Source of the DNA: a virus
Reading direction: 5' to 3' (one strand)
Length of the DNA stretch: 64,000 bases
Virus record (IMG/VR): IMGVR_UViG_3300012984_000014
Coordinates: 32,001 to 96,000 of that record
Shown: piece after piece, positions 9,357 to 39,166 of the stretch
How positions within the stretch are numbered: position 1 is the stretch's first letter
Layout: every line of letters starts with the position of its first letter
The notes under the pieces: model-generated
Database searches by the model: none
What the model was told of the DNA's origin: nothing
The model's input: only the letters and a program-made list of their open reading frames with translations
Made by a program: the position numbers and the translations under genes

Positions 9357-10099
9357 GCACTGTGGCGTCCATCATCGAAGATCTGAAGCTGCACGACCGC
9401 CTCCGAATCGCCTTGGAGCGTCGGGAGCACGAGAACGTGATCGTCATGCAGGCGGACGCGCTGACAGCGCTCCGCGCGCTCCCGAGCGAGTCCATTGATC
9501 TGTTCAACTTTGACCTCCCGTACGAATCGCTGGAGAAGCATCGCGCGGTCGGCTCGACGACGCGCTTGAGCCACTCCACCAAGTCCAGCAACGATTGGTT
9601 CGGCGTGTTCCCCAACGCGCTGTTCCCCGAGATGCTGAAGGAGATGTTCCGCGCGCTCAAGCCGAATCGCCACCTATACGCCTGGTGCGATGACGAAACC
9701 AGCGACATTCTGAAGGCGGACCTAACGGCCGCGGGATTCAAGGTGTGGAAGCGACTCGTCTGGGACAAGCAGATGATCGGCATGGGGTACCACTACCGCG
9801 CGCGCTACGAGTTCATTTTGTTCGCAGAGAAGGGCAAGCGCCGCGTCGCTGACCTCGGCGTGCCTGATGTTCTGAGCTTCAAACGGATCAAGAACAAGGA
9901 TGCCTATCCAGCGGAGAAACCCGTGGAGATCAACGAGATCTTGACGCGCCAAAGCTCACTCTCCGGAGAGGTCGTGTGCGATCCATTCTGCGGAAGCGGC
10001 TCGGCCGGGAAGGCGGCGCAGAATCTCGGCCGTCGTTTCGTCGGCTTCGACGTCTCGCCCGAGGCTGTCCGCCGAACACGAGAGCGGCTTGGCCTCTGA
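9353..10099 (+). CDS. DNA N6-adenine/N4-cytosine methyltransferase (beta class)
   Basis: GTG overlap; motif IV DLPY, YPAEKP, motif I DPFCGSGS. Confidence 0.88.
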   Translation: MSTVASIIEDLKLHDRLRIALERREHENVIVMQADALTALRALPSESIDLFNFDLPYESLEKHRAVGSTTRLSHSTKSSNDWFGVFPNALFPEMLKEMFRALKPNRHLYAWCDDETSDILKADLTAAGFKVWKRLVWDKQMIGMGYHYRARYEFILFAEKGKRRVADLGVPDVLSFKRIKNKDAYPAEKPVEINEILTRQSSLSGEVVCDPFCGSGSAGKAAQNLGRRFVGFDVSPEAVRRTRERLGL

Positions 10100-14415: not shown

Positions 14416-15473
14416 TCCAGGGCCAGGTGGACCACGAATTGTACGAAGACATCGAGCGTGAGCTGATGCCCATCATCCGCTCCGCGGCGCGGCGCTTCGC
14501 GCCCGGCCTCGGAATCAGCACTGAGGATGCCGTCCAAGAGGGGCGCCTGGCGCTGATGCTCGCTCTGAAGGGATATGACTACAACGCCAGCAAGGGCGGG
14601 ATTTACAACTTTGCCCGCAAGACCATCCGGAACGCGATGTGCGGTCTGCTCTACTCGGCCACGACGCAGAGCCGATGCCCGCGCGTGGTGATGGAAGAGA
14701 ACGGCGAGCTGGTTGTTGTGAAGATGTGGCCGGCTCTGACGGACGTTCCCGAGGTCCATCCGGACAGGGATGCCAAGACGCCTGAAGAACTGGCGATCGA
14801 AAGCGAGTTCACGGACAAAATCCGTGTACTTCGTATGCGCTTGGTCAATCGCCTAAATCCTTTTCAGCTGAAAGTCTTGAGTTGCATTTCCAGAAACAAC
14901 GTTCTTTTTGAGACATTCTTGCGCAATCGAGACGAGCCCGAGGCGACGCACGCTCTCATCGGCGAGTGGCTTGGAATGGGAATGGACGAAGACGGCGAAG
15001 CCAAATTGGCCTCGGGCAATCGCCACACCAAAAAGAATGCCGTTGATTGGGCCGTCCACAGAATCAAGCAGCACTTCACGGTTCTGATGGAGGCCGAATT
15101 CAGCGACATCGTGGAGGAGGCCATACAAGCCGGGAAGTGGCCCATGTTTTACGTTTCGACGAAGCAAAACGACAAGTCCTTCATTCAGGGCATCATCGAG
15201 AAGCGCTCGCTGGACGCGCGCCCGATCTCCTCCCCTGAAATCAAGGCCCGTACCGGCAAGGACGGGACGCGAGCCGTCCGGCACATCGAAACGTATTCGT
15301 GGGGCTCGGTCATCATGCTAAGTTTTGGCGAAAATGCAGCAACCGTAGTTGCCGAAGGACGATTCAACGCCATCAGCGGCGAGGTCCTTCAGCCGTCGGG
15401 CTCCTGGAAGTCCATTCTGGACGTTGTTCCCTGGTACGTCAAAGCGTCGCACTTTATCAACGAAAAGGGCTGA
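14412..15473 (+). CDS. Phage sigma70-family (SigH-like) factor with C-terminal extension
   Basis: Region 2 EDAVQEGRLALMLALKGYDY...YNFARKTIRNAM; region 4-like KNAVDWAVHRIKQ. Confidence 0.75.
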   Translation: MIQGQVDHELYEDIERELMPIIRSAARRFAPGLGISTEDAVQEGRLALMLALKGYDYNASKGGIYNFARKTIRNAMCGLLYSATTQSRCPRVVMEENGELVVVKMWPALTDVPEVHPDRDAKTPEELAIESEFTDKIRVLRMRLVNRLNPFQLKVLSCISRNNVLFETFLRNRDEPEATHALIGEWLGMGMDEDGEAKLASGNRHTKKNAVDWAVHRIKQHFTVLMEAEFSDIVEEAIQAGKWPMFYVSTKQNDKSFIQGIIEKRSLDARPISSPEIKARTGKDGTRAVRHIETYSWGSVIMLSFGENAATVVAEGRFNAISGEVLQPSGSWKSILDVVPWYVKASHFINEKG

Positions 15474-15474
15474 A

Positions 15475-16344
15475 ATGGCTGACAAGAGGATGCCGCGGTG
15501 CCTCGGCTCATTCGAGGAAGACGACCCGCAATGCGATGGCGATCCTGTAGGAAAGACAGAAGCCGAGCGCGCGCCATGCGCATATCGCGATAGGTGCGCC
15601 GGCTTCGTGAAGCTGATGCAGATCACCAAGCGGCCGCGGGATTACTTCATCAGGACGATGGAAGTGATCGGGCAAGGCAAGTCCAAGCCGGTCGCTTACA
15701 CATTCGCAAATCATGAAGGGTTCGAGGAGCAGGTGAACGAGCAGATTCTGCTGTATGGAATCCACGGCGGACGAGCGCGCAACGAAAAGCCGTTGAAGCC
15801 TCGAATGGTGGTGAAAAAGACGCCGAAGGTAACGGGGCTCAGGAAGCCACCTAGGCCCACCAAGGCGTTTGCTCGGGCCGGGGCCAAGGCTCGGGCCAAG
15901 CAAACTCGGGACGGCCGCGAGAAGTCAAAAGAGGTGGGACAGTGGTACATCAAGCGCGTGGCGACTCGTTTGGCACGGAAGGTGGCTGCGTTCGAGGAGT
16001 CCGCGCGCCCTGGCGAGTTGTTCCTTGTGGACCGGCTCGAATCCTCCAACTACTGTGCCTTGTACTGCAAGGGGAAGACGCGGCGGATCGCGATCACGAG
16101 TTACCTGTACAAGCCGAACAGGGGGCTGATCGAGGTCCGCCTGGCAGTGGCGTTTGCGGACTACATGACAGCGTGCTCACGCTCGGAGCGTGATGGGCTC
16201 GCCCCGGTCGACCACACAGGCAAAGACGGGGCTTTCAAGGTGCGAATCATGAACGTTGACTCGCACAACGCGAGCGTGATAGCAGAGACGCTTTCCAAGG
16301 TGGACAAGCGCGGCGGCTTCGCGTTCCCAGAGGCAAGAACATGA
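15475..16344 (+). CDS. Hypothetical protein (N-terminal Cys cluster, basic middle)
   Basis: ATG 2 nt after upstream stop; coupled to next gene. Confidence 0.6.
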   Translation: MADKRMPRCLGSFEEDDPQCDGDPVGKTEAERAPCAYRDRCAGFVKLMQITKRPRDYFIRTMEVIGQGKSKPVAYTFANHEGFEEQVNEQILLYGIHGGRARNEKPLKPRMVVKKTPKVTGLRKPPRPTKAFARAGAKARAKQTRDGREKSKEVGQWYIKRVATRLARKVAAFEESARPGELFLVDRLESSNYCALYCKGKTRRIAITSYLYKPNRGLIEVRLAVAFADYMTACSRSERDGLAPVDHTGKDGAFKVRIMNVDSHNASVIAETLSKVDKRGGFAFPEART

Positions 16345-17330
16345 AGAAGAAAATGGTGATCGTCGGCGGAGGTATCTCGGGCTTGATCGCGTCCTGGGTG
16401 TACACGCAGGTGCCCGGGCTCGACGTCGTGGTGCTGGAGCCGGGGAAGCCGGGCGGAGACTTCGCGGCCGGCGGGCTCAAGTACATCCACAAGACGGACC
16501 CGATGGAGGAGCTGCTTCAAGACCTCCGAATCACTTACACAGACTACAGCGTTCAGGGCGGCATCCTGCTCCACGGCGCCGTGGAGCCTTTCCCGGCAGT
16601 CCTCAAAGGGATGGACAAGGGGCGCGCGCTACGGATTCAGCACGATCACTACCGCAAGACACGCCAGATCGAGCCCGACGCCTTTGCCGCGCGCTCGATG
16701 AACGACCCTGAAAGCTCGGGCCCGCGGAAGGCGCTCCGCTGCGATATGGAAAGGATGCTCAAGGACTTGATCGGGCTCGCGCCGATCGCAAAGGATGGCT
16801 GCGCGCGCATCGATCCTCACCGTGTAATCGGGACGTCGGGCAATCAATACCTGTTCGACTACCTGCTGCTGACCATCCCGATCTGGGTGATCAAGACCAT
16901 GGTCTGGTTCCCGCTCCCGGACACGATGGCCATCAAGCTGAACCTCGTGATGGTCGACCCGCCGGAGAAGGTCGACGCCTTTGCCCAGTGGGATTACGTC
17001 TACACGCCATACACACCCGAGAACATGATCCATCGGATCAGCCCGCGCGACGGCGGCTACACGTGCGAGTTCAACGGCGCCTGGGAGGAGGGCGACGGAA
17101 CCGGGGACAAACTCACCTCTGAGCTCAACTTCCTGTTCCCGGGCGGCTGGGCGCTCGCGCGGACGCTGAAGGGCCTCAACGGACACCTGCTGCCGATGAC
17201 CACCAAGCCCGTCTGGCCCGACAACATCCGCCCGCTCGGGCGCTTTGCGCAGTGGGATCCGCGGATGACCTCCGACGTCGTGCTCAGTACGTGTCTGGAA
17301 CAGGCAAAAGCATGGAATCTGACTACCTAG
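16341..17330 (+). CDS. FAD-dependent oxidoreductase (Glf/amine-oxidase-like Rossmann fold)
   Basis: VIVGGGISGL...VLE...PGG; C-terminal LGRFAQW. Confidence 0.8.
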   Translation: MKKKMVIVGGGISGLIASWVYTQVPGLDVVVLEPGKPGGDFAAGGLKYIHKTDPMEELLQDLRITYTDYSVQGGILLHGAVEPFPAVLKGMDKGRALRIQHDHYRKTRQIEPDAFAARSMNDPESSGPRKALRCDMERMLKDLIGLAPIAKDGCARIDPHRVIGTSGNQYLFDYLLLTIPIWVIKTMVWFPLPDTMAIKLNLVMVDPPEKVDAFAQWDYVYTPYTPENMIHRISPRDGGYTCEFNGAWEEGDGTGDKLTSELNFLFPGGWALARTLKGLNGHLLPMTTKPVWPDNIRPLGRFAQWDPRMTSDVVLSTCLEQAKAWNLTT

Positions 17331-18217
17331 TCAGGATGTGGGCTGCCCAAGAGCAGCAGCAGCGTGAACTAGGGCTCGACCCCGCGGAACTGAGCGACGT
17401 CGAACGGCGACGCCTAGGTGATGATCTCGCGCTCCTCCTGCACGAGGAGGCGTCAGAGCTGGGGCGCCTTTCCGGAGGCTACAAGCGGCACATCCTGCGT
17501 GCGTCGAAGGTGGACCGTCACGCGGTCGCGTTCGAGTGCGCGGACGTGCTGAAGACGATGCTGGCCCAGGCGCAACTCCACGGCGTGACGCTAGGCGAGT
17601 TGGTCGACGCCTTCACGCAGAAGACCGAGGCCGTGCGCCAGAAGGCGCTCGCCGAACACCTGGAGCTGAGCGAGTCCTGCCGCGTCCTGTGCGTGGACGT
17701 GGACGACGTGATCTGCGACCTCGAACCTTGGCGCGACGAGTTGAAGAAGCTCGGGCCCGTCGAAGCAGCGGCCGCGCTCCGCCTCGAAGCGTCGGAGGAC
17801 ATGAAGAACGCCTTTTACTCGGGCGGACGCTTCCGCGAGATGGCGGCCGTTCCCGGAGCTGCCGAAGGACTCGCGCGCGTCTCCGCGGCCGGGGTCAAGA
17901 TCGTCCTCATCACGGCGCGCCCCCAGTGGCAGTACAAGCGCCTCCATTCTGACACGGTCTACTGGCTAAACCGCGAGGGAATGACGTACGACCTCCTGCT
18001 GTTCAGCCGGAACAAGGTGGAGGCCGTCTATGACCACGTGCGCCCGGCGTGGCCCATCGCTTTCGTGGAAGACCACCCGGTCAATGCCGATGCAATCGCT
18101 GAAGCTGGCATTCAAGTCCTTCTGTACGATCAACCACACAATCGTCACGTTTCAGCGAAGTCAGGGATCACCCGGGTAGCTAGCTGGACCGATATCACAA
18201 CGAAGTTGGGAGTGTAA
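17312..18217 (+). CDS. Fusion: all-alpha NTP pyrophosphatase (MazG/dUTPase-like) plus HAD 5'(3')-nucleotidase
   Basis: LHEEASEL...YKRH...ECADVL; HAD motifs VDVDDVICD, ITAR, FVEDHPVN. Confidence 0.75.
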   Translation: MESDYLVRMWAAQEQQQRELGLDPAELSDVERRRLGDDLALLLHEEASELGRLSGGYKRHILRASKVDRHAVAFECADVLKTMLAQAQLHGVTLGELVDAFTQKTEAVRQKALAEHLELSESCRVLCVDVDDVICDLEPWRDELKKLGPVEAAAALRLEASEDMKNAFYSGGRFREMAAVPGAAEGLARVSAAGVKIVLITARPQWQYKRLHSDTVYWLNREGMTYDLLLFSRNKVEAVYDHVRPAWPIAFVEDHPVNADAIAEAGIQVLLYDQPHNRHVSAKSGITRVASWTDITTKLGV

Positions 18218-18223
18218 TCTGAA

Positions 18224-19582
18224 ATGAACAACGCAGACAGCAGCTACGATTACGAGCAATACAACAAGCGCCTGATGGGCAACATCGTCCGGATGCCTCT
18301 GGTGGTCGGCAGTGCCAAGGGTTGCCATTTGGAGGTTCGTCTAGGAGGCGGTCCGGAAGTCGAACCCATCTTGGACTTCTGGGGCGATGAGGGCGTGGCC
18401 TCGCTCGGCTACAACTCGGACGAGTTCCGGATGGCCATGGCCGAATTCCTGAACGCTGAGATGCCGCAACGCCTCCCCGACGTCTACCCGCACGAACTGC
18501 GTTGGCAGGCGGCAGAGATCATCTGCTCGCGTACGGGCATGGATCGCCTGTTCTACTCCAACAGCGGCACGGAGGCGAACGAGGCCGCCATCAAGCTCGC
18601 GCGCAAATACTGGTGGGACAAGGAAGCTGCCGAGGGAACCCCGGGCTTTGGCGACGCCTTCCCTCAGTTCAAGAACTGCGCGCGCCGACACAAGATATAC
18701 ACCATTGAAGGCAACTTCCACGGCCGCACGGGCTACTCGCTCGCCGCGAGCGACTACCGCGTCAGCCCGTACCACCGCACCGGCTACGGCGTCAGCGCAC
18801 CGGGTTTCGGCGTGATCACGGAAGACCTCCGTGAAGTCGCCTTCGACGGCCAGGAAATGACGGGCATCGAGGAGCCCGACTGGACCAAGGTCGCTGCCGT
18901 GATGCTCGCACCCGTCCTCGGGAACAATCTGGTCAAGACCTATCCGCAGAGCTTCTGGGAACGGCTCGACCGTCTCCGGAAGCAGCACGGCGTCCTGCTC
19001 GTGTACGACGATGTACAGGCGGGCAACGGGCGAGCCGGCCACTACGCTACGTGGCAGAAGTGCGGCGTCAAGCCGGACATCATGTCACTCTCCAAGGGCA
19101 TTGCGATGGGGCTCCCGATGAGCGTCACGCTGGCCTCGGAGGAGGTCGCCAAAAGCTTCGCAACGCCAGGCGTCCACTTCAACACGTTCGGCGGGACGCT
19201 CTTGTGCTGCCACTTGGCGATCAAGCTCTACAAGTGGTTGGACGAGCACCTGCACGAAGTCCGCGAGCGCGGCGACTTCATCCGGGAGCAGTTCGGCGCG
19301 CGCTCCTGGATAAAGCACTTCGACGGCTCCGGGATGCTGAACGCCTTCCAGCCGGACTTCAAGGAGTTTGGCTATGACGGCTATCAATTCATCGCGCGCT
19401 CGCGGGAGAACGGGCTGGCTCTCGTGACTCACCGCCAGCATGGGATGATCCGCTTCACGCCTCCGCTGAACGTCACGCAGAGCGACCTACAGGAGGCGTT
19501 CAACATCCTCGACAGGACCCACAAACAGCTCGCGGCGGAAGCCGTCGCGGACGCCGAAAAACTCGGAATGGGGGCGGTTTGA
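18224..19582 (+). CDS. Class III PLP-dependent aminotransferase
   Basis: NSGTEANEAAIKLAR, FHGRT, YDDVQAGNGRAG, PDIMSLSKG (PLP lysine), TFGG. Confidence 0.9.
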   Translation: MNNADSSYDYEQYNKRLMGNIVRMPLVVGSAKGCHLEVRLGGGPEVEPILDFWGDEGVASLGYNSDEFRMAMAEFLNAEMPQRLPDVYPHELRWQAAEIICSRTGMDRLFYSNSGTEANEAAIKLARKYWWDKEAAEGTPGFGDAFPQFKNCARRHKIYTIEGNFHGRTGYSLAASDYRVSPYHRTGYGVSAPGFGVITEDLREVAFDGQEMTGIEEPDWTKVAAVMLAPVLGNNLVKTYPQSFWERLDRLRKQHGVLLVYDDVQAGNGRAGHYATWQKCGVKPDIMSLSKGIAMGLPMSVTLASEEVAKSFATPGVHFNTFGGTLLCCHLAIKLYKWLDEHLHEVRERGDFIREQFGARSWIKHFDGSGMLNAFQPDFKEFGYDGYQFIARSRENGLALVTHRQHGMIRFTPPLNVTQSDLQEAFNILDRTHKQLAAEAVADAEKLGMGAV

Positions 19583-20577
19583 ACACGCCCAAGGTCACGC
19601 TCCTTTCGCACACGGGGCTCCCGCTGGAAACGGTGATGAGCCTCTGGAACGCCTCGAAGGATGAGCTGCCGCTGCTCACCCCAGAGGAGATCAAGGCGAC
19701 GGTCGACCCGGATGACGTCCGCAAGCTGTTCCGCGAGGTCATCGCGCAACACATCCCCGTCGGCGAGTCGGTGGACTTCGTGTTCATGATCGAGGGCGTC
19801 AGCGTCTCGTGGCGCGAGCAGGCCGTGCGTCATCGCATCGGCGTCAAGCCCTCGCCCGAGCGCCTGGGGATCGACATCGGCATGATCGACGTGAAGGACT
19901 TACCGAACCTAGCCGACAGCGTTTATTGGTCTCAGTCGATGCGAATCCAGAACATGGGCAAGTTCGCCGATTTGGACAACTATCGGACGCCGGAGACGAT
20001 CGTGCAGCACGCCGATTCCGAAAAGTTGAAGGCCATATATGACGAGACGATGTGGCTTATCCAGGAAGGCTACAACAAGTTGGTCGCGGCCGGGATCCCG
20101 ATGGAGGACGCACGCGAGCTGATCCCGCTCGGGGCCACGCACCGCATCTCGTGGAAGCTGAACATCAGCTCGCTCCAACACATCGTGTCGAAGCGCGGCT
20201 GCTGGATCCTACAGCTCGGAATCTGGGGCCCGGTCATCGAGGGGATGATCCGAGAATTGACCGAAAAGGTGGATCCAATCTTCGGTGAGTTGGTCACACC
20301 TCCGTGCCTGAAGGGCGACGAGTTCAAGGGCTGCGTCTACATGGAGGAGAACCGTCGGCGCTACACCGGCGACGACAAGCTGCCTCCGTGCCCGCTCCAC
20401 GTCGTCCACCACCACATGGACCAGTCGACGCCGGCAGCGGACCGTCAGTTGGTCGCGTCTTGCGGCATCGACCTCGGGGTGCCGATGCAATCCGAGATGC
20501 GCAAGCGCGCTGAAGATTACCGCAGTTTTTGGGGTCGTGACCCGTACTCGGGCAAACGGCTGCGCGTGCTCCGATGA
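19579..20577 (+). CDS. thyX: Divergent flavin-dependent thymidylate synthase-like protein
   Basis: QAVRHRI...SQSMR with insertion; EDARELIP; N..L.H....KR. Confidence 0.75.
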   Translation: MNTPKVTLLSHTGLPLETVMSLWNASKDELPLLTPEEIKATVDPDDVRKLFREVIAQHIPVGESVDFVFMIEGVSVSWREQAVRHRIGVKPSPERLGIDIGMIDVKDLPNLADSVYWSQSMRIQNMGKFADLDNYRTPETIVQHADSEKLKAIYDETMWLIQEGYNKLVAAGIPMEDARELIPLGATHRISWKLNISSLQHIVSKRGCWILQLGIWGPVIEGMIRELTEKVDPIFGELVTPPCLKGDEFKGCVYMEENRRRYTGDDKLPPCPLHVVHHHMDQSTPAADRQLVASCGIDLGVPMQSEMRKRAEDYRSFWGRDPYSGKRLRVLR

Positions 20578-20795
20578 CGCCAGTGCTGCTTTGCGAGTAC
20601 ATCGTGGCCGGCGCGCTCGGGCTCGCCGGAGCCGTCTTCATTCTGGCTTGCCTCGCGGCGCTCATCAAGTGGCTCTTCATCAAGCCGGATCCTGACGACG
20701 ATGGCGACGAGGACGACGACGGCGAGGAGCGGCCCGCCGACTTCAAGGCGACGTCGAAGGCAGCGGCCATGGCAGCATCGAAGGACACCAATTGA
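20574..20795 (+). CDS. Small single-TM membrane protein with acidic tail
   Basis: Hydrophobic N-terminal helix; coupled both sides. Confidence 0.55.
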   Translation: MTPVLLCEYIVAGALGLAGAVFILACLAALIKWLFIKPDPDDDGDEDDDGEERPADFKATSKAAAMAASKDTN

Positions 20796-21373
20796 TCATC
20801 GTCCTCGAAGGCGTCAACGGAACGGGCAAGAGCACGTACGCGGAGAAGCTCTCCAAGGGCCTCAACGCGCCCGTGCTCCGCCCGTTCCGGCAGGGTCCCG
20901 ATCACCACTTCACCGGCACCACGAGCATCGAGCGCGAGCTGAAGGCGCTCGCCGTCCCGTACAACACGCACGTGGACGACATCTACACGGCGGACATCCT
21001 CGCGCGGCTGCTCAAGTTCAACAAGCACATCCCGGTCATCCTGGACCGCTCGGTGGGCAGCGCGATAGCGCACGGGGAACGCCCGCTAAGGGACGCCGGG
21101 CGCCTGCTTGGGCTCTGGCAACAGCTGCTAGGTCCGGACACGCACGTGGTGTACGTTTGGCTCACGGCGCCGTGGTCTGTAGCCAACCCTCGGTTGGCTC
21201 TCGATCGGCGCGGGCGCTTCACCGAGGAAGAGCACAAGCGGCTTCACGGGCTGTTTCGCTACGTGTTCGAGATGGTGCGATACACCAAGTTGGAGATCGA
21301 CACCGCGAACGTCGATGCGAACGATGGCGTGAAGCAGATCGTCGAGTTGATGGGAATTGTCCAAACTCGATGA
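20792..21373 (+). CDS. dNMP (thymidylate-type) kinase
   Basis: IVLEGVNGTGKST P-loop; VILDRS. Confidence 0.8.
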   Translation: MIIVLEGVNGTGKSTYAEKLSKGLNAPVLRPFRQGPDHHFTGTTSIERELKALAVPYNTHVDDIYTADILARLLKFNKHIPVILDRSVGSAIAHGERPLRDAGRLLGLWQQLLGPDTHVVYVWLTAPWSVANPRLALDRRGRFTEEEHKRLHGLFRYVFEMVRYTKLEIDTANVDANDGVKQIVELMGIVQTR

Positions 21374-21680
21374 ACTCAGAGCGAAACTCCGAACCGGCGA
21401 ATTGGAAGCCGAGTTGGAGGCAAGGCGCGAGCAGTCCAACAGGATTTACAAGATAAATCCATCGGGATCGGATGCGCTGATCAAGTTCGGGCGCCACCGC
21501 GGTCTTACCCTCCTCCAGATCAAGCAGAAAGAACCGGGCTATCTGGACTTCATTCGCAACTCGGACTTCCCCGAGGAGCTGAAGGACGTCGTGCGGTACA
21601 TACAGACGATCACCGCGGCCAAGGAGATCTCCCTGGCGGCCGACTCGTTGACCGACTGGCTCAAAGGCGACAAGAAATGA
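21357..21680 (+). CDS. Small protein with exonuclease-X C-terminal-like (DUF3820-like) motif
   Basis: IKFGRHRGLTL...EPGYLDFI. Confidence 0.6.
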   Translation: MSKLDELRAKLRTGELEAELEARREQSNRIYKINPSGSDALIKFGRHRGLTLLQIKQKEPGYLDFIRNSDFPEELKDVVRYIQTITAAKEISLAADSLTDWLKGDKK

Positions 21681-24600
21681 CCGATACAACCGACGACTTC
21701 GTGCACCTCCACACGCACAGCGACATGAGCCAGCTGGACGGGTGCGGGAAGATCAGCGAGTACGTCAAGACAGCGAAACTCCGCGGGCATAAGGCGCTCG
21801 CCTTCACGGACCACGGCACGATGCGCGGCGTGATGACGCACTACGAGCAGTGCAAGGAGGTAGGCATCAAGCCCATCTTCGGCACCGAGTTCTACGTGTC
21901 GAAGAACATGTTCAGGAAGGGCCTGACGGCGGAGGAGAAAGCCGAGCTGACCAAAGGCGCGAAGAAGGCGGACCACAAGGAGATCCTCCGCGCGTATGAG
22001 GACCACGAGGGCATCCGCGACCGTTGGCACATCACGTGCTGGGCGCAGACGAACGAGGGCCTGAAGAACCTGTACAAGCTCTCCAGCATGAGCTTCATTG
22101 ATGGGTTCTACTACAAGCCGCGCATCGACCTCGCGACCCTGATCAAGCACGGTGCGGGCATCCACGTCGCCTCTGGTTGCCTGTCGAGTCCGATCAACGA
22201 CTCGTGGAACGAGGGTCGGAAGCGGGACGCGCTGAACTACGCCGATCAGCTTCAGGAGGCGTTCGGCGAGCGTTTCTGGTTGGAGGTTCAGCCACACGCC
22301 ATCGATATTCAGTGCGAAGCAAACCGCCTGATGATGAAGCTCCACGATCGCTACGGCGGCAAGTCGCGCTACCTCGCGACGCAGGACGCCCACTATGTGG
22401 ATCAGGCGGACGCGGAGCACCACGAAGTGCTGCTGTGCATCGGGACGGGCTCGAACCTGAGCGACCCGAAGCGCTTCAAGTTTGACGGCGATGAGTTCCA
22501 CTTCCGGACGCGAAAGGAGATGTGGAACGCCTTCAAGCGCCACCACGACTTCTTGCCCGGTCGCTGCGTTAAAGAGGCATTAAATTCCACCATAGAACTA
22601 GCTGAATCTTGCACAGCGAAGATGGAGGTGGACTATCACAAGGTGTTGCTTCCAGACCCCGGCATCCCGGCAAAATATGCCGGTGACCCCTTTGCCTATC
22701 TGAAGGACGAGTGCGTGATGGGATGGGCTTGGCGGGACATCCCGACGCGCGCCCGGGCGTACGCAAAGCGCGAAGGAATCACGCCTGTGGACGCCATCGA
22801 GCTGTACCGCGCGCGCCTGAAGATGGAGTTGAAGGCGCTGAAGGTGCAGCGGTTCGTCCCATACTTCTTGATCATCCGTGACATCTACCGCTTCGCCCGG
22901 GAAGCCTCCATCATGGTCGGCCCAGGTCGTGGCTCCGTCGGTGGATCACTGATCGCCTACTTGTTGGGAATCGCGGCGACGGACCCGATTGAGCACGGCC
23001 TGATCTTCGAGCGCTTCATCAGCCCAACTCGTATCGACATGCCCGACGTGGACATGGACTTCGAGGACCGGCGACGCGGCGAGATCATCCAGTACATCAG
23101 GACCAAGTATGGCGACGACAAGGTGTGCCAGATAGCCACCATCGGCAAACTCTCCGGCAAGGAGTGCATCCGGTCCGTCTCGCGCGTCCTGGAGATCCCC
23201 CTGAACGAGGTCAATCAGGTCACGAACAGCATCATTGAACGGTCGTCCGGCGACGAACGCGCCAGCCAGACGATCGCCGACAGCTTCCGTGACTTCGAGA
23301 TCTGCCGCGCCTTCAACAAGAAGTATCCCGAGGTGCTCCGTCACGCCCAAAAGCTCGAAGGCATGGCCAAGAACCTCGGAATCCACGCCGCTGGTGTCGT
23401 CGCCAGCCCTATCCCGCTCGTGGAGGCGATACCGCTGGAGGTCCGCAAGCACGCAGGCGGCGACATCGTCGTATCAGCATTCGACATGTATGGCGTGGCG
23501 GCCGCGGGGCTCGTAAAAATGGACGTGCTCGGCCTCCGAACGCTTTCTGTCGTCAAGGAGGCTTTGGAAGCCATCGAGGCTCGGCACGGCATACACATTG
23601 ACCCCGAGCGACTGGATCTGAACGACCCTAAGGTGCTCGCTGGCTTCACGGCGCACGACTACGGCGGCGTGTTTCAGTACGACACCCCGAGCGCGGACAA
23701 GGTTTGCATCGGCGTCAACTTCACGAGCTTTGAAGACGTCGCCGCGATGACGGCGCTCAACCGGCCGGGCACGAGCCGCTCCGGCCTCGCAACCAAGTAC
23801 GTGGAGCGCAAGAAGAACCCAAAATTGGTGGAAAAGATCGACTTCCACCCTGCCGTCTCCGCTATCACAAAGGACACACTGGGAATCATCGTCTACCAGG
23901 AGCACGTTCTGCGCATCTTCACCGACATCGCGGGTTTCGCTCCGGCGACTGCAGACAAGCTGCGCAAGACCATTGCCAAGAAGATCGGCGACGAGACGCT
24001 GGGAAAGGAGCGCGAGAACTTCGTGGAGGGCGCGATGAAGACCACGCCCGGGATGACGGAGGCGGTCGCCAACAAAATCATGGACGCGATCACGTTCTTC
24101 GGGTCGTACGGTTTCAATAAGAGCCACGCAACGGCCTACGGGATGATCGCCTATTGGTGCATGTGGATCAAGGTCTACTACCCTGTGGAGTTTTACTGGG
24201 CGCTTCTCAAGAACGAGCCCGAGCGAATCCGAATCCAACAGATTGCCAAGGACGCGAAGAAACACGGCATTGTGCTGTCTCCACCCCACGTTTCCTCGTC
24301 GTCTACCAACTTCAGCATCGACGGCGCGCTGGCCATTCGTGGCTCGCTCGTGGACATAAAGGGCGTGGGAGAGAAGGCCGCGCAAGCCATCATGGAGGCG
24401 CAGCCTTTCAAAGACATCATGGACTTCATCGCGCGCGTCGACCGTCGGCGCTGCAATCGCGGGGCTGTCGTGGCGCTCGCGAAAGCCGGCGCGCTCGACG
24501 GCCTGATGCCGAACATCAAGTGGTTCATCGAGAATGCAGACACGGTTTGGGACAAGCTCACATCGAAGCGGAAGCGGGACACAGGCGCGGCCGCGCTCGC

Positions 24601-25528
24601 GCTTCTGGAGGAGTCGAAGCTGACGGAGGACTACAACGAGGAGGACAAGCTGCTGGTAAGTTCGAAGGTTTCGCCGCTCGCATTCGGGCGTCACCCAATC
24701 GACGCCTATGCCTCTTTCATGGAGTCAGACATGAAGGTGGAGCTGGCGGAGATGGGCGCCGACGACTACTTCAAGGAGTACAACAACCGCGGCCACTTCA
24801 TCGCGGGCGTGATCGTGGAGGTCAAGTACAACCAGATCGGCGACTTCCACACCGGTCCCATGCCGACCGAGCTGGAGCGCAAGCAGCAGTTCTGGGGCGC
24901 GCGCTACGCGAACGTCAACATTGAGGAGCGCTCCGGTAAGCAGAACCGGGTGAAGTTCGATCACGACATCTTCGACGCGAACCGCCACATCATTGACAAG
25001 GGCGTCGGAACAGCAGTGATGGCCCATGTGACGGCGAGCGAATTCACGCAGACCCTCCGGGCCCAGTTCGCTATCGATGTGGATGACTTCCGGAAGCGTG
25101 CGCGCGCCTTCGAGCCGCTGACCATGTGGGAGACGATCGTCAAGGGTAAGCACCCCGCGAAGTTCTACCCGTGGCGTGACATCAAGCTCCGGAAGGCGCG
25201 CCTGCGCAATACTCTCTTCTGGGATCGGGACGCCGGCCCGTTCTGCGGTGTGGTCACGAATGTTCGCCTGAAGTACGACAAGAAGGGCAATTGCATGGCC
25301 TACTTCGGGTTGATCGGCGGTGACCTCCGATACACAGACGTGATGTGCTTCGCGTCGTTGTGGGACGAGATCAGGCGTGTCGTGAAGGTCGGCCGGCTGA
25401 TCAAGATCGATCTGGTGCGGAAAAAGGACGACTTCCGTGGCGGAAAAAGCGCCATGTTCGAAGGCGGCCGCGTGACGCATTTGAAGCGCGCACCATCATA
25501 TTCAGCCGCGCTCGGCACGTCTGAGTAA
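21677..25528 (+). CDS. dnaE: DNA polymerase III alpha subunit (family C)
   Basis: PHP VHLHTHS..S.LDG, AFTDHG; GPGRGSVGGSL; FERFISP.R.DMPDVDMDF; GIHAAGVV; YGFNKSHA. Confidence 0.96.
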   Translation: MTDTTDDFVHLHTHSDMSQLDGCGKISEYVKTAKLRGHKALAFTDHGTMRGVMTHYEQCKEVGIKPIFGTEFYVSKNMFRKGLTAEEKAELTKGAKKADHKEILRAYEDHEGIRDRWHITCWAQTNEGLKNLYKLSSMSFIDGFYYKPRIDLATLIKHGAGIHVASGCLSSPINDSWNEGRKRDALNYADQLQEAFGERFWLEVQPHAIDIQCEANRLMMKLHDRYGGKSRYLATQDAHYVDQADAEHHEVLLCIGTGSNLSDPKRFKFDGDEFHFRTRKEMWNAFKRHHDFLPGRCVKEALNSTIELAESCTAKMEVDYHKVLLPDPGIPAKYAGDPFAYLKDECVMGWAWRDIPTRARAYAKREGITPVDAIELYRARLKMELKALKVQRFVPYFLIIRDIYRFAREASIMVGPGRGSVGGSLIAYLLGIAATDPIEHGLIFERFISPTRIDMPDVDMDFEDRRRGEIIQYIRTKYGDDKVCQIATIGKLSGKECIRSVSRVLEIPLNEVNQVTNSIIERSSGDERASQTIADSFRDFEICRAFNKKYPEVLRHAQKLEGMAKNLGIHAAGVVASPIPLVEAIPLEVRKHAGGDIVVSAFDMYGVAAAGLVKMDVLGLRTLSVVKEALEAIEARHGIHIDPERLDLNDPKVLAGFTAHDYGGVFQYDTPSADKVCIGVNFTSFEDVAAMTALNRPGTSRSGLATKYVERKKNPKLVEKIDFHPAVSAITKDTLGIIVYQEHVLRIFTDIAGFAPATADKLRKTIAKKIGDETLGKERENFVEGAMKTTPGMTEAVANKIMDAITFFGSYGFNKSHATAYGMIAYWCMWIKVYYPVEFYWALLKNEPERIRIQQIAKDAKKHGIVLSPPHVSSSSTNFSIDGALAIRGSLVDIKGVGEKAAQAIMEAQPFKDIMDFIARVDRRRCNRGAVVALAKAGALDGLMPNIKWFIENADTVWDKLTSKRKRDTGAAALALLEESKLTEDYNEEDKLLVSSKVSPLAFGRHPIDAYASFMESDMKVELAEMGADDYFKEYNNRGHFIAGVIVEVKYNQIGDFHTGPMPTELERKQQFWGARYANVNIEERSGKQNRVKFDHDIFDANRHIIDKGVGTAVMAHVTASEFTQTLRAQFAIDVDDFRKRARAFEPLTMWETIVKGKHPAKFYPWRDIKLRKARLRNTLFWDRDAGPFCGVVTNVRLKYDKKGNCMAYFGLIGGDLRYTDVMCFASLWDEIRRVVKVGRLIKIDLVRKKDDFRGGKSAMFEGGRVTHLKRAPSYSAALGTSE

Positions 25529-36532: not shown

Positions 36533-37125
36533 TCCGTTTGAAGTTGCTCGACAAGCTCGAAGAGCAGTGGAAAGGATGCCAAGCTTGCGGCCTCCATCGA
36601 GGCCGCGGGCGAATCGTTCACTGGCGAGGTAGTCCGAGCGCGCCGTTGTTCGTCATCGGCGAGGCACCAAGCGGTGACGACGATGCTGAAGGCCTGCCGT
36701 TCGTTGGCAGGTCTGGGCATATGGTCGACCTGATCCTAAAACAGGCAGGGCTTGGCAACGATCACGTCTTCATGACTCATTCGGTCGGATGCCACCCGCC
36801 AGGCGGTCGGGCGCCGGACCAAGAAGAGATCCAGGCATGCTCGAACCGTCTTCAGATTCTTCTGCGGATAGTTCGGCCGCGAGCCGTCCTGCTGTTTGGA
36901 TTCGTCGGTGCAAAGCTTGCGGGAATCCAATCTGTGGCAGCGAGCCGGGGCCAACAGTCCAGCCTGGATATGCCATGTTACGATGGGCGTATGCGCTCTT
37001 GGCCCGCGATCGTCACGTGGTCTCCAGGATTCCTAATCCGGTCCGGCGGCCAAGGCTCTCCTAGGTTTCAAGAGTCGTTGTCTGACGTTGTGACGGCGTG
37101 GAAGTTAGCAAATTCAGTCGAATGA
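36529..37125 (+). CDS. Family-4 uracil-DNA glycosylase-like protein with altered active site
   Basis: CQAC, IGEAPS, GLPFVGRSG, GCHPP, EIQAC; THSV and TWSP replace canonical TN and HP. Confidence 0.8.
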   Translation: MIRLKLLDKLEEQWKGCQACGLHRGRGRIVHWRGSPSAPLFVIGEAPSGDDDAEGLPFVGRSGHMVDLILKQAGLGNDHVFMTHSVGCHPPGGRAPDQEEIQACSNRLQILLRIVRPRAVLLFGFVGAKLAGIQSVAASRGQQSSLDMPCYDGRMRSWPAIVTWSPGFLIRSGGQGSPRFQESLSDVVTAWKLANSVE

Positions 37126-37592
37126 CTGGCGTTTACCAGATACGTTGCAAGGCCAACGGGCGCCGTTACGTCGGAAGCTCTCTGGATATCAAGCGCCGTT
37201 GGAAGGAGCACAGAAGCGACCTGAGGAAAAGAAGGCATTGCAACGCGCGCCTCCAAAACGCTTGGAACAAATACGGCGAAAGAGCTTTTGAGTTCAAGCT
37301 CATCCAACTTACGAGCGTGGCGGAGTTGATTCCCGCTGAGAAGCTCTGGTTTTGGCTGCTCCAACCAGAGATGAACATCCAGACGGACATTGGGCGCCCG
37401 CCGATGCTTGGGAAGACGCACACGGAAGAGACACGGGCCAAGCTCAGAGCCTGGGCCCACTCTCCGGAGGGACGCTTGGCGTGTTCTGGCGGAAAGGGCG
37501 TGGCCCAAAGCCTAGAACACAAACGGAATATGGGGCGCGCGTTGAAAAAGGCTTGGGAGCGGCGGAGAAGGAATTCAGCTGCGTTGGCCTAG
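37122..37592 (+). mobile_element. Free-standing GIY-YIG homing endonuclease with NUMOD3 repeats
   Basis: GVYQI...YVGSS.DI..RW.EH; GKTHTEETRAKL. Confidence 0.85.
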
Positions 37593-37616: not shown

Positions 37617-38198
37617 ATGATCCTCTCTGACAAACACCTGAAACGCGCACTAGCCAAAGGCGACCTGGTAGTTGAACCGCTGAAAAGCGCGGCCATTCAA
37701 CCGGCGTCAATCGACCTGACGTTGGGCGATGAGTTCATGCATTGGCCCAGAGAGAGGACGTTCCGCGGCGCCATCGACATGGCGGACGCGGCGTTGAAAT
37801 CGCCTCCGATGGAGCGCGTCATCGTCGGGAACGGAGCTCCGTTCGAGCTGTTCCCGGGCGCGTTCGCGCTTGCGACGACTGAAGAGAAGATCGGATTGGA
37901 TCCGGGCCTCTGCGCGCGCGTCGAAGGCCGGAGCTCAATTGGCCGCTTTGGGTTGATGGTCCACGCGACCGCGGGTTTCATTGATCCGGGGTTCGCAGGC
38001 AAGATCACGCTCGAAATGTACAACTTGAGTCCGCATGTGATCCGTCTTTACCCGGGCCAATCCATCTGCCAGATTGCGGTGTCCGCCATGAGCAGCCCTG
38101 CCGAGCGACCGTATGGCGCAGCGCGCGGTTCTAAGTATCAGGGCCAAGATGGCGTTGCGGCCAGCCGATGGAAGGGGATTGGTGATGGGAATCCTTGA
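37617..38198 (+). CDS. dcd: dCTP deaminase
   Basis: ILSD, IQPASIDL, ARVEGRSSIGR, AGFIDPGF.GKITLE. Confidence 0.93.
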   Translation: MILSDKHLKRALAKGDLVVEPLKSAAIQPASIDLTLGDEFMHWPRERTFRGAIDMADAALKSPPMERVIVGNGAPFELFPGAFALATTEEKIGLDPGLCARVEGRSSIGRFGLMVHATAGFIDPGFAGKITLEMYNLSPHVIRLYPGQSICQIAVSAMSSPAERPYGAARGSKYQGQDGVAASRWKGIGDGNP

Positions 38199-38633: not shown

Positions 38634-38670
38634 AAAAGTTCTCGACTCTGTAACTGATTCAGGCTATGGT
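38600..38670 (+). promoter_or_regulatory. Phage promoter family copy 2
   Basis: AAAAAGTTC-TCGACT-17 nt-TATGGT. Confidence 0.7.
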
Positions 38671-38680
38671 TGAGGCTTCT

Positions 38681-39166
38681 ATGAGCTGCGGAGTCTACAG
38701 AATCGTGTGCTTGGCGAACGGTCGATGCTACATCGGCTCAAGTCAGCGCATCGAGCTGCGCTGGGGCGAACACAAGAGCGAGCTTCGCTCCGGCGTCCAT
38801 CACAGTCGACACCTGCAGCGCTGCTGGGCCAAGTACGGGGAAGACCGGTTCAAGTTCGAGGTCCTAGAGTTGGTCGACGGCGACCCGCTTGCGGCCGAGC
38901 AACGCTGGCTGGACCAGGAGCGGCCTGAGCTCAACGGAACGTTCAATGCGGTGGCTCCGTGGCGAGGAAAACGGCTTTCGGCGGAGCATCGCGCCAAGAT
39001 CAGCGCCAGCCACAAGGGGCGAGTCGGGCCGTGGCTTGGGAAGAAGCGCCCCGACCTCGGGGCGAAAGTCGGCGCGGCGCTTCGCGGCCGAACGCTCCCG
39101 GAAACGACGCGCGCTAAGATGCGCGCTGCTTGGGCACGTAGGAAAGCACTTCAAAAGGAGAATTAG
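38681..39166 (+). mobile_element. Second free-standing GIY-YIG homing endonuclease with NUMOD3 repeats
   Basis: GVYRI...YIGSS.RI..RW.EH; GKRLSAEHRAKIS; ATG 38666 lies inside the -10 box so 38681 preferred. Confidence 0.85.

What the first reader, a model, noticed from the sequence alone, without database searches (positions are those of the whole stretch)
16341..21373. Candidate undescribed pre-replicative pyrimidine-modification pathway
Tightly packed or overlapping genes encode an FAD oxidoreductase, an NTP-pyrophosphatase/HAD nucleotidase fusion, a class III aminotransferase, a divergent ThyX and a dNMP kinase, just upstream of dnaE. This is the logic of base-substituting phages: destroy the canonical dNTP, build a modified dNMP, phosphorylate it, incorporate it. 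Known amine-bearing thymidine modifications (phiW-14, ViI, M6, PaMx11) are made on DNA from 5-hmdU via a kinase and amino-transferring enzymes, which I do not see in this window. One inferred route: dUMP to 5-hydroxymethyl (ThyX-like) to 5-formyl (FAD enzyme) to 5-aminomethyl-dUMP (aminotransferase). Alternatively the two enzymes make an amine/aldehyde side chain that ThyX attaches. dcd at 37.6 kb would supply dUMP.
Basis: partly seen in the sequence, partly recalled or inferred. Interest (0 to 1): 0.88.

Follow-up and report, generated by a model that had tools for sequence, protein, structure and literature searches.

The report
Conserved phage thymidine-nucleotide tailoring operon
An uncultured 116-kb phage keeps five nucleotide-handling enzymes next to its own DNA polymerase, and this conserved set most likely builds an amine-bearing replacement for thymidine; two of the enzymes have distant relatives in Pseudomonas therapy phages whose DNA carries a modified thymine of unknown origin.

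Summary
At 16341-21373 a translationally coupled row encodes five enzymes: a flavoprotein, a MazG-like/HAD nucleotidase fusion, an ArgD-like class III aminotransferase, a Cys-rich ThyX and a thymidylate-kinase-like protein. It runs straight into dnaE.

All 18 non-redundant related contigs that span the region (GC 35-63%) keep the first four enzymes, and 17 keep the kinase.

- The flavoprotein has a UDP-galactopyranose-mutase / amine-oxidase fold. It is not the PaMx11 gp47 type.
- The "divergent" ThyX belongs to a large phage subfamily with four conserved cysteines. That subfamily also occurs without the flavoprotein or aminotransferase, so it is not specialised to this operon.
- One small ORF in the row is not conserved.

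New here: Pbunavirus and Wifcevirus phages carry full-length distant homologs of the flavoprotein and the ThyX beside a DnaE-type polymerase. A 2025 preprint reports hypermodified thymidine of unassigned biosynthesis in Pbunavirus DNA.

The complete genome has no ThyA, no 5-hmdU DNA kinase domain and no aGPT-Pplase3.

Best reading (about 0.45): a pool-level pathway to an amine-bearing 5-substituted dU. The exact hydroxymethyl-formyl-aminomethyl route is unproven (about 0.15). No chemistry has been shown. This scan has flagged the same operon before on other DNA.

The parts
15475..16344 (+). Conserved upstream ORF of unknown function (289 aa from ATG 15475; the ORF as listed starts at 15349).
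   Evidence: tblastn/HMM hits at the same position in many related loci. No Pfam, PHROG or Atlas match. Membership of the pathway is unknown.
16341..17330 (+). FAD-type flavoprotein (329 aa) with a UDP-galactopyranose-mutase / amine-oxidase fold; a sequence family known only from phage contigs.
   Evidence: AF2 model pLDDT 92.9. VIA-align best match 4dsg_A, Z 26.6, rmsd 3.1, 324 residues, then protoporphyrinogen oxidases at Z 23. Foldseek agrees. Pfam matches only the Rossmann part. Full-length hhalign match to Pbunavirus gp64 / Wifcevirus Bas101_0051, probability 95.5%, E 1.6e-8.
17312..18217 (+). Fusion of a MazG-like all-alpha NTP pyrophosphatase with an NT5C-like HAD 5'(3')-deoxyribonucleotidase domain.
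   Evidence: Pfam NT5C E 1.4e-11 and weak PRA-PH. Conserved EExxE...ExxD motif, and DxDxV, T221, K255, D274. Best solved relatives are cytosolic and mitochondrial deoxyribonucleotidases and YpjD-type MazG proteins.
18224..19582 (+). Class III PLP aminotransferase, ArgD-like, with an altered substrate-gating motif.
   Evidence: Pfam Aminotran_3, 185.9 bits. Profile against PDB: acetylornithine aminotransferase, E 1.8e-85. Invariant K291, D262, R168, R410; EPIQGEGG is replaced by APVLGNN.
19579..20577 (+). Flavin-dependent thymidylate synthase homolog of the four-cysteine phage subfamily; the only Thy1 gene in the genome.
   Evidence: Pfam Thy1, 74 bits. Foldseek to T. maritima ThyX, E 4e-6. Canonical dUMP/FAD residues are kept; C208, C243, C252 and C271 are kept in about 96% of 150 diverse representatives. 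It is the single Thy1 hit in the genome.
20574..20795 (+). 73-aa ORF with a hydrophobic N-terminus and an acidic tail; not conserved, probably not part of the pathway.
   Evidence: Translation. No counterpart in the related loci.
20792..21373 (+). Thymidylate-kinase-like P-loop kinase (193 aa).
   Evidence: PHROG 761 thymidylate kinase, E 5e-12. Pfam Thymidylate_kin 23.1 bits, below the cut-off. Profile against PDB: thymidylate kinase E 1e-9, deoxynucleoside kinase E 1e-7. P-loop and DRSxxSxxAY motif present.
21357..21680 (+). Conserved 107-aa ORF before dnaE.
   Evidence: Weak ExoX-like_C hit. Homologs at the same position in several loci.
21677..25528 (+). DnaE-type replicative polymerase that would use the product.
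   Evidence: 1283-aa ORF. 39-67% identical homologs directly downstream of the cluster in all related loci.
37617..38198 (+). dCTP deaminase, a possible source of deoxyuridine nucleotides.
   Evidence: Pfam DCD, E 2.6e-44.

Best explanation
The row is one operon that tailors a thymidine-type nucleotide in the pool before replication.

Shown:
- The enzyme families.
- Intact catalytic motifs.
- Contiguity with the polymerase gene, and long-term co-conservation.

Inferred pathway:
1. dCTP deaminase, and the MazG-like domain acting on dUTP and/or dTTP, feed deoxyuridine or thymidine monophosphate.
2. The four-cysteine ThyX puts a folate-derived carbon on C5 of dUMP. The product is either dTMP or the hydrated 5-hydroxymethyl form.
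3. The mutase/amine-oxidase-fold flavoprotein oxidises or rearranges the C5 substituent to a carbonyl.
4. The ArgD-like transaminase turns that carbonyl into a primary amine, using an amino-acid donor.
5. The thymidylate-kinase-like enzyme phosphorylates the new dNMP. A host NDP kinase and the phage DnaE finish the job.
6. The NT5C-like HAD domain removes the competing canonical pyrimidine dNMP.

The simplest product is 5-aminomethyl-dU. A longer amino-alkyl or sugar-derived side chain is equally open. In 8 of 18 relatives an extra methyltransferase-like gene inside the cluster may add a methyl group.
For: - Co-conservation: 18 of 18 non-redundant loci spanning the region keep the flavoprotein, fusion, ThyX and aminotransferase, and 17 of 18 keep the kinase. 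This holds although aminotransferase identity falls to 37% and flavoprotein identity to about 26%, and GC ranges from 35 to 63%.
- Local rearrangements keep the set contiguous. ThyX and the aminotransferase are swapped in this window, and the accessory methyltransferase-like ORF takes three different positions.
- Translational coupling into dnaE.
- All catalytic motifs are intact.
- The HAD domain is nearest to dUMP/dTMP-preferring deoxyribonucleotidases.
- The aminotransferase is an aldehyde/omega-amine type whose gating motif is replaced.
- The flavoprotein family was found only on phage contigs. It gave no hit in cultured-phage records or in 185,579 species genomes by the pattern scan.
- Distant full-length homologs of the flavoprotein (hhalign 95.5%, E 1.6e-8) and of the ThyX (99%, E 3e-18) sit beside a HAD fusion and a DnaE-type polymerase in Pbunavirus and Wifcevirus.
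- Pbunavirus F8 and 14-1 virion DNA contains thymidine derivatives of 362 and 390 Da with no assigned genes (PMC12191111).
- The closest cultured ThyX relative is in an SP-15-type phage. A ThyX paralog of SP-15 has been proposed as a hydroxymethyl-dUMP synthase (PMC5977210).
- dTTPase-based exclusion of T is documented for PhiW-14 (PMC5977210).
- Established knowledge, not tested here: an FAD oxidase plus a class III transaminase converts CH2OH to CH2NH2 in neomycin biosynthesis (NeoQ/NeoN).
Against: - No chemistry or virion DNA data exist for this clade.
- The same ThyX subfamily is found in 17 well-flanked loci of PolA-type phages without the flavoprotein, aminotransferase, fusion or kinase. 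No conserved site separates the two groups. ThyX may therefore simply make dTMP.
- All co-conserving loci belong to one phage lineage with shared synteny (CobS-CobT-sigma ... DnaE), so part of the co-occurrence is inheritance.
- The flavoprotein fold class is not a typical alcohol oxidase.
- In Pbunavirus only about a quarter of T, in a TG context, is modified. That points to a step on DNA rather than pure pool replacement.
- A low-GC lineage (L090/L091) has flavoprotein-fusion-ThyX-DnaE with no aminotransferase in between.
- The link between the two HAD fusions is generic only (hhalign probability 6%).
Confidence: 0.45

Rival explanations
1. Ordinary nucleotide supply plus unrelated auxiliary genes. 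ThyX and the kinase make dTTP. The MazG-HAD fusion sanitises or drains the host pools. The flavoprotein and aminotransferase serve some amino-acid or polyamine need, and are linked to the others only by synteny.
For: - ThyX keeps every canonical catalytic residue and is indistinguishable from copies in phages that lack the other genes.
- ThyX is the genome's only thymidylate synthase.
- The aminotransferase's best solved relatives are arginine-pathway enzymes.
- All cluster-bearing loci share one lineage's synteny.
Against: - A pyrimidine deoxyribonucleotidase fused to an NTP pyrophosphatase next to a dTMP synthase would be futile if both handled the same base.
- The flavoprotein and aminotransferase never leave the ThyX/kinase block in 18 of 18 loci, despite rearrangements.
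- The aminotransferase has lost the ArgD/OAT gating motif.
- Homologs of the flavoprotein and ThyX travel together in Pbunavirus, whose thymine is modified.
Confidence: 0.25
2. Thymidine hypermodification that finishes on DNA, as seems to happen in Pbunavirus. The operon makes a precursor nucleotide and/or an amine-bearing donor, and part of the chemistry (flavoprotein, aminotransferase) acts on polymerised DNA in a sequence context.
For: - Pbunavirus modification covers about a quarter of T, in TG context (PMC12191111).
- All characterised amino-bearing thymidines are completed on DNA (PMC8989533).
Against: - No HMUDK_hel, aGPT-Pplase3 or HMUD2 in a genome rated 100% complete.
- A dedicated thymidylate-kinase-like gene inside the block argues for a monophosphate intermediate.
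- No DNA-binding domain is evident in the flavoprotein or the aminotransferase.
Confidence: 0.15
3. Synthesis of a free aminonucleoside or other small molecule, following the logic of puromycin precursors: an oxidoreductase, a transaminase, an NTP pyrophosphatase and a monophosphatase. The product would serve host takeover or signalling rather than DNA.
For: - The enzyme classes (oxidoreductase, transaminase, NTP pyrophosphatase, phosphatase) match that logic. This rests on established knowledge of the pur cluster and was not tested here.
- The kinase also resembles deoxynucleoside kinases (E 1e-7).
Against: - Constant placement between ThyX and the replicative polymerase.
- The kinase motif DRSxxSxxAY is of the thymidylate-kinase type.
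- No export or resistance gene is evident.
- The Pbunavirus link points to DNA.
Confidence: 0.05

Closest known systems
Pre-replicative thymidine replacement in SPO1/SP8/phi-e and PhiW-14 type phages (dUMP hydroxymethylase, dTTPase/dUTPase, dTMP nucleotidase, dNMP kinase)
   Same: Same logic: a thymidylate-synthase-type enzyme, enzymes that hydrolyse the canonical pyrimidine nucleotide, a dedicated kinase and the phage's own polymerase. dTTPase-driven loss of dTTP is documented for PhiW-14 (PMC5977210).
   Different: Those phages use a ThyA-family synthase. Here there is no ThyA, only a ThyX. They have no flavoprotein or transaminase at the pool stage.
Post-replicative amino-bearing thymidine hypermodification (M6, ViI, PaMx11, SP10, PhiW-14; Lee et al. 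2018, 2021)
   Same: The likely end result is an amine on the C5 methyl carbon of thymine. PaMx11 also uses a flavoenzyme, and reaches 5-aminomethyl-dU (PMC8989533).
   Different: Those pathways need a 5-hmdU DNA kinase and aGPT-Pplase acting on DNA. Of the defining Pfam families, the three tried by accession (HMUDK_hel, aGPT-Pplase3, HMUD2) are absent here; aGPT-Pplase1 and 2 were not tried. The PaMx11 flavoenzyme is MnmC1/DAO-like, whereas DAO-type structures match this protein only at Z about 15, against 26.6 for the mutase fold. No class III transaminase is known in those systems.
Pbunavirus / Wifcevirus module: gp64-like flavoprotein, histidine-less Cys-rich ThyX and HAD_PNKP fusion, upstream of a DnaE-type polymerase
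   Same: Full-length distant homologs of the flavoprotein (95.5%, E 1.6e-8) and of the ThyX (99%), a HAD phosphatase fusion, and the same position next to the polymerase. Pbunavirus DNA carries hypermodified thymidine whose genes are unassigned (PMC12191111).
   Different: That module has no aminotransferase and no thymidylate-kinase-like gene. Wifcevirus adds an SDR and a glyoxalase-like protein. Its ThyX reads RTR instead of RHR and lacks the 30-residue insert. The HAD fusion has the opposite domain order and no demonstrable homology beyond the HAD core. The role of that module in the modification is itself unproven.
Canonical flavin-dependent thymidylate synthase (ThyX, e.g. T. maritima TM0449)
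   Same: Same fold, and the counterparts of Q75, R78, H79, R80, S88, R90, E144, R147 and R174 are kept.
   Different: About 30 extra residues after the RHR motif, a C-terminal extension of about 110 residues, and four near-invariant cysteines that are absent from the solved enzymes. A phmmer search finds no solved structure at E 0.01.
NeoQ/NeoN-type alcohol-to-amine pair of aminoglycoside biosynthesis (from established knowledge, not tested here)
   Same: An FAD enzyme followed by a class III transaminase converts a CH2OH group to CH2NH2 through an aldehyde.
   Different: NeoQ is a GMC-type oxidase, not a mutase/amine-oxidase fold, and its substrates are sugars, not nucleotides.

Membership tests
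ThyX / Thy1 (PF02511) | Thy1 domain above the Pfam gathering score | tested here: met
   74 bits against a cut-off of 24.8; 72.8 bits in the six-frame genome search.
ThyX / Thy1 (PF02511) | ThyX motif RHR...SxR, plus the arginines that bind dUMP | tested here: met
   R84-H85-R86, S120, R122, R179 and R206 are conserved in the family, with a roughly 30-residue insert between RHR and SxR.
ThyX / Thy1 (PF02511) | ThyX fold | tested here: met
   Foldseek best matches are T. maritima ThyX, E 4e-6, probability 1.00. The model is only moderate (pLDDT 69.5) and the active-site loops are of low confidence.
ThyX / Thy1 (PF02511) | Makes dTMP from dUMP | not testable with these tools
   Needs an enzyme assay or thyA complementation.
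UDP-galactopyranose mutase (GLF, PF03275) | Three-domain mutase fold | tested here: met
   4dsg_A, Z 26.6, rmsd 3.1 over 324 of 329 residues. This is 3.4 Z units above the next family.
UDP-galactopyranose mutase (GLF, PF03275) | Sequence match to the GLF family model | tested here: not met
   No GLF hit in any of 34 family members even at E up to 10. The protein is therefore filed as mutase-like in fold only.
Flavin amine oxidoreductase (PF01593) | Family model match | tested here: inconclusive
   7 of 34 members give weak hits (best 3.7e-5). The Atlas neighbours after viral clusters carry Amino_oxidase. Structural Z is 17-20.
PaMx11 gp47-type flavin lyase (MnmC1/DAO-like) | DAO/MnmC1-type fold as the best structural class | tested here: inconclusive
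   DAO-family chains appear only at Z about 15, against 26.6 for the mutase fold. gp47 itself was not compared directly.
Class III aminotransferase (PF00202) | Family model, catalytic Lys and the PLP-binding Asp | tested here: met
   185.9 bits. K291 and D262 are invariant in 28 sequences.
Acetylornithine/ornithine aminotransferase subgroup | EPIQGEGG motif with the gating glutamate | tested here: not met
   The motif reads APVLGNN across the family. Both substrate arginines (R168, R410) are kept.
MazG-like all-alpha NTP pyrophosphatase | ExxE ... ExxD metal-binding motif and a family model match | tested here: inconclusive
   The motif is present and conserved. Pfam PRA-PH gives 17.7 bits, below the 21.3 cut-off. 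Profile hits to YpjD-type proteins reach E 7e-4.
NT5C 5'(3')-deoxyribonucleotidase (PF06941) | Family model and HAD motifs I-IV | tested here: met
   45 bits against 24.8. D149xD151, T221, K255 and D274 are invariant. The best solved relatives are cytosolic deoxyribonucleotidases, E 4.6e-5. Substrate was not tested.
Thymidylate kinase (PF02223) | Family model above cut-off; P-loop and DR(Y) motif | tested here: inconclusive
   23.1 bits against a cut-off of 27. PHROG 761, E 5e-12. Profile against PDB: thymidylate kinase 1e-9 but also deoxynucleoside kinase 1e-7. The motifs are present.
5-hmdU-based post-replicative hypermodification system | 5-hmdU DNA kinase and aGPT-Pplase genes in the genome | tested here: not met
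   No HMUDK_hel, aGPT-Pplase3 or HMUD2 match in six frames of a genome rated 100% complete. No such Pfam hit among about 70 ORFs scanned. aGPT-Pplase1 and 2 were not searched by accession.

The most novel reading that the evidence does not exclude
The Cys-rich ThyX and the mutase-fold flavoprotein form a previously unrecognised flavin-based machinery that installs carbon substituents on C5 of deoxyuridine nucleotides. The substituent could be one carbon or a sugar-derived chain, transferred through a flavin N5 adduct. This machinery would underlie the unassigned thymidine hypermodification of Pbunavirus therapy phages. In the uncultured clade studied here it would be extended by a transaminase and a kinase, to give the first amine-bearing thymidine analogue built entirely at the nucleotide-pool stage.
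Probability: 0.2. Interest if true: 0.9.

Novelty: new variant of a known kind. Interest (0 to 1): 0.78.

Why it matters
- Every amine-bearing thymidine known in phage DNA is finished on the polymer by a kinase/transferase pair. A route built from a ThyX, a mutase-fold flavoprotein and an omega-transaminase acting on free nucleotides would be a new biosynthetic logic for DNA hypermodification.
- It would add new enzymes for making modified dNTPs.
- The operon is kept across a widespread uncultured phage group, with GC from about 23 to 63%.
- Its two least ordinary enzymes have relatives in Pbunavirus, a genus used in phage therapy. The modified thymine of Pbunavirus was reported in 2025 without any candidate genes.
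- The link turns that open question into a direct knockout test in a cultured system.

Tried and rejected
- **Cultured-phage searches.** DNA and protein searches of cultured-phage records found no close relative of the cluster, and no hit at all for the flavoprotein. The only links to cultured phages are remote, at profile level.
- **Species genomes.** Pattern scans of 185,579 species genomes for the flavoprotein and for the ThyX variant returned nothing.
- **IMG/VR.** A single-sequence scan with the aminotransferase failed. The alignment-based scan worked.
- **Specialised ThyX, rejected.** I tested whether the ThyX in the operon is a specialised paralog. It is not: no group-specific conserved column except K27/R.
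- **gp47-like flavoprotein, not favoured.** DAO-type folds score far below the mutase fold.
- **HAD fusion homology.** Homology between the HAD fusions of this clade and of Pbunavirus could not be shown beyond the generic HAD core. The C-terminal domain of the Pbunavirus fusion has no Pfam match.
- **Accessory methyltransferase-like ORF.** It gave only weak class I methyltransferase hits.
- **Upstream 289-aa ORF.** It gave nothing in Pfam, PHROGs or the Atlas.
- **Tools unavailable.** Coordinates of the predicted models are not available, so no active-site geometry or cysteine-cluster distances were measured.
- **Wrong accessions.** Guessed Pfam accessions PF18724, PF18743, PF18744 and PF18745 turned out to be unrelated families.

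Full report
**What is there**

The window is bases 32001-96000 of a single-contig phage genome of 116,461 bp. The genome is rated 100% complete and has about 60% GC.

The finding lies in a + strand replication module. In order, the module holds:
- SF2 helicase, DnaB and an N6/N4 methylase;
- primase, CobS-like ATPase and CobT-VWA;
- a sigma-70-like protein and a conserved unknown ORF;
- the five enzymes of the finding;
- a small ORF, DnaE (1283 aa), HU, RecA, SbcCD, a 5'-3' exonuclease and a UDG-family protein;
- two GIY-YIG endonucleases and dCTP deaminase.

The junctions within the row are ATGA/TTGA overlaps or gaps of a few bases. Promoter-like and terminator-like sites in 11-27 kb are no more frequent than in shuffles. 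The row therefore reads as one transcription unit running into dnaE.

Two corrections to the coordinates:
- The fusion protein most likely starts at ATG 17312, where its homologs start, not at GTG 17252.
- A 73-aa membrane-like ORF (20574-20795) is wedged between ThyX and the kinase and has no counterpart elsewhere.

**The five proteins**

*Flavoprotein (16341-17330).* Pfam sees only its Rossmann start.
- A 34-sequence alignment gave a confident model (pLDDT 92.9).
- The best structural match is UDP-galactopyranose mutase: 4dsg_A, Z 26.6, rmsd 3.1 Å over 324 of 329 residues.
- Protoporphyrinogen oxidases follow at Z 21-23, and amine and amino-acid oxidases at Z 17-20. DAO-type enzymes score only about 15.
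- No member of the family matches the GLF sequence model. The protein is mutase-like in fold, not a member of that family.
- Its relatives are all unnamed proteins on phage-sized contigs. The Atlas neighbours are viral, then amine-oxidase clusters.

*Fusion protein.*
- It carries a conserved EExxE...ExxD motif of all-alpha NTP pyrophosphatases.
- It has a complete HAD active site: DxDxV, T221, K255, D274.
- The HAD half meets the NT5C model.
- Its nearest solved relatives are the cytosolic and mitochondrial 5'(3')-deoxyribonucleotidases. By established knowledge these enzymes prefer dUMP and dTMP.

*Aminotransferase.*
- It is a class III enzyme nearest to acetylornithine aminotransferases (E 1.8e-85).
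- It has an invariant catalytic lysine, the PLP aspartate and both substrate arginines.
- The EPIQGEGG gating motif is replaced by APVLGNN throughout the family.

*ThyX.*
- It has the ThyX fold and the counterparts of all the classical dUMP and flavin residues.
- It also has a roughly 30-residue insert after RHR, a C-terminal extension of about 110 residues, and four cysteines.

*Kinase.* It has the P-loop and the DRSxxSxxAY signature of thymidylate kinases, with weak family scores.

**Conservation**

An alignment-based scan of IMG/VR and one scan of metagenome contigs gave 92 loci with this ThyX type.
- Eighteen non-redundant loci span the flavoprotein gene through dnaE.
- All 18 carry the flavoprotein, the fusion, ThyX and the aminotransferase. 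Seventeen carry the kinase.
- Eight carry an extra methyltransferase-like ORF of about 260 aa, which sits in three different positions but always inside the block.
- The usual order is flavoprotein, fusion, ThyX, aminotransferase, kinase. This window alone has ThyX and the aminotransferase swapped.
- GC ranges from 35 to 63%. Aminotransferase identity falls to 37% and flavoprotein identity to about 26%.
- Two low-GC fragments (23-26%) show flavoprotein, fusion, ThyX and then DnaE, with no room for an aminotransferase.

All these loci share the wider synteny, so inheritance explains part of the co-occurrence. Contiguity that survives local rearrangement argues for a functional tie.

**The ThyX is not private to the operon**

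A profile search of 1.84 billion representatives found 221 clusters at E ≤ 1e-30. The four cysteines are kept in about 96% of the best 150.

Seventeen loci with at least 3.5 kb on both sides carry this ThyX but none of the other four enzymes. There it sits before a family A polymerase, next to a YfbR-like HD nucleotidase, a nucleoside-deoxyribosyltransferase-like protein, a UDG and sometimes a radical SAM enzyme.

A tree mixes the two contexts only slightly. Only one conservative column (K/R at position 27) separates them. The ThyX therefore very likely does the same reaction in both settings. It does not say what that shared reaction is.

**A link to cultured phages with modified thymine**

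In Pseudomonas phage crassa (Pbunavirus) and Escherichia phage Bas101 (Wifcevirus), a "hypothetical" protein of about 332 aa, a ThyX and a HAD_PNKP fusion lie just upstream of a DnaE-type polymerase.
- The hypothetical proteins align with the flavoprotein family over nearly their full length (hhalign 95.5%, E 1.6e-8, 274 columns). The alignment includes the C-terminal GRFAxW motif.
- The ThyX match is 99% (E 3e-18) and includes three of the cysteines. The fourth is seen by eye only.
- The HAD fusions share only the generic core.

A 2025 preprint reports that Pbunavirus F8 and 14-1 virion DNA contains thymidine derivatives of 362 and 390 Da. These replace about a quarter of T in a TG context, and no known modification genes are present (PMC12191111).

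The best cultured match to the ThyX is Listeria phage LIS04, an SP-15-type phage (99.9%, E 4e-35). Its ThyX sits beside HD and deoxyribosyltransferase genes, as in the second metagenomic group. SP-15 has dihydroxypentyl-uracil, and one of its two ThyX paralogs was proposed as the hydroxymethyl-dUMP synthase (PMC5977210).

These are associations, not proofs. They do raise the odds that this ThyX lineage and the flavoprotein work on thymine substituents.

**What is absent**

Six-frame searches of the genome found one Thy1 gene and no ThyA-family gene. They found no 5-hmdU DNA kinase helical domain, no aGPT-Pplase3 and no HMUD2. About 70 scanned ORFs gave no other nucleotide-metabolism enzyme besides dcd and the UDG-family protein.

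**Most likely mechanism**

I rate a pool-level thymidine-tailoring pathway at about 0.45. The proposed steps are:
1. Deoxyuridine or thymidine monophosphate comes from dCTP deaminase and the MazG-like domain.
2. ThyX transfers a C5 carbon.
3. The flavoprotein forms a carbonyl.
4. The ArgD-like enzyme transaminates it to a primary amine.
5. The kinase phosphorylates the product, and DnaE incorporates it.
6. The NT5C-like domain removes the competing canonical dNMP.

Only the families, the motifs and the conservation are shown. Every chemical step is inferred.

The specific hydroxymethyl, formyl, aminomethyl route has a precedent in enzyme pairing (NeoQ/NeoN, from established knowledge). It has none for this flavoprotein fold, and I give it about 0.15.

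Because flavin N5 adducts are central to both ThyX and the mutases, a longer, sugar-derived side chain is an open alternative. The Pbunavirus masses (thymidine plus 120 or 148 Da) would fit such a chain.

Rivals:
- Ordinary dTTP supply plus unrelated auxiliary enzymes (0.25).
- A pathway finished on DNA (0.15).
- A free aminonucleoside (0.05).

**Novelty and standing**

I found no paper describing this gene set. The scan itself has flagged the same operon on several other genomes, and two follow-ups reached a similar cautious reading.

New in this report:
- the fold assignment of the flavoprotein;
- the demonstration that the ThyX subfamily is broader than the operon;
- the co-occurrence counts;
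- the profile-level tie of both unusual enzymes to Pbunavirus and Wifcevirus.

**Limits**

Noticed in passing
L002:8224-9027, L004:8230-9042, L006:6430-7200, L007:9244-9996, L041:9571-10356: An accessory ORF of about 260 aa with an FGGSGWH motif. It gives weak class I methyltransferase hits (TRM5/TYW2, DUF938, spermidine synthase). It occurs in 8 of 18 related clusters, in three different positions, always inside the block. It is absent from this genome.
   Followed up: partly
L090:1-1900 and L091:1-3425: Very low-GC (23-26%) relatives show flavoprotein, fusion, ThyX and then DnaE, with only about 560 nt between ThyX and DnaE. The aminotransferase is therefore missing from the block. ORF calling after ThyX is poor, which might point to a different genetic code.
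   Followed up: no
L022, L031, L051, L058, L060, L064, L066, L081, L083, L088, L089, L093, L094 (around position 10000): A second group of uncultured phages carries the same four-cysteine ThyX directly upstream of a family A polymerase. A YfbR-like HD nucleotidase, a nucleoside-deoxyribosyltransferase-like protein, a UDG and sometimes a radical SAM/SPASM enzyme lie next to it. This neighbourhood resembles that of the SP-15-type Listeria phage LIS04.
   Followed up: partly
window 20574-20795: A 73-aa ORF with a hydrophobic N-terminal segment and a strongly acidic tail is inserted between ThyX and the kinase. It is unique to this genome among the loci compared.
   Followed up: partly
window 37098-37592 and 38666-39166: Two GIY-YIG/NUMOD3 homing-endonuclease-like genes flank the dCTP deaminase gene.
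   Followed up: no
L004:11907-16778, L007:12678-17444, L025:8046-13067; proteins P0241, P0242, P0288: DnaE homologs in several related loci are 300-400 aa longer than the one here. Some ThyX representatives are 650-870 aa and match in two or three separate stretches. Both suggest inteins or endonuclease insertions in these genes.
   Followed up: no
L016:12207-13286 (genome 107207-108286, outside the window): A 359-aa protein with a very strong DUF7227 match (E 1.7e-75) lies just before the terminase and portal genes.
   Followed up: no
L098:8736-10067: In Wifcevirus Bas101 the ThyX/HAD block is followed by a short-chain dehydrogenase and a weak glyoxalase-fold protein before the polymerase. 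These genes are not present in Pbunavirus crassa or in this clade.
   Followed up: no
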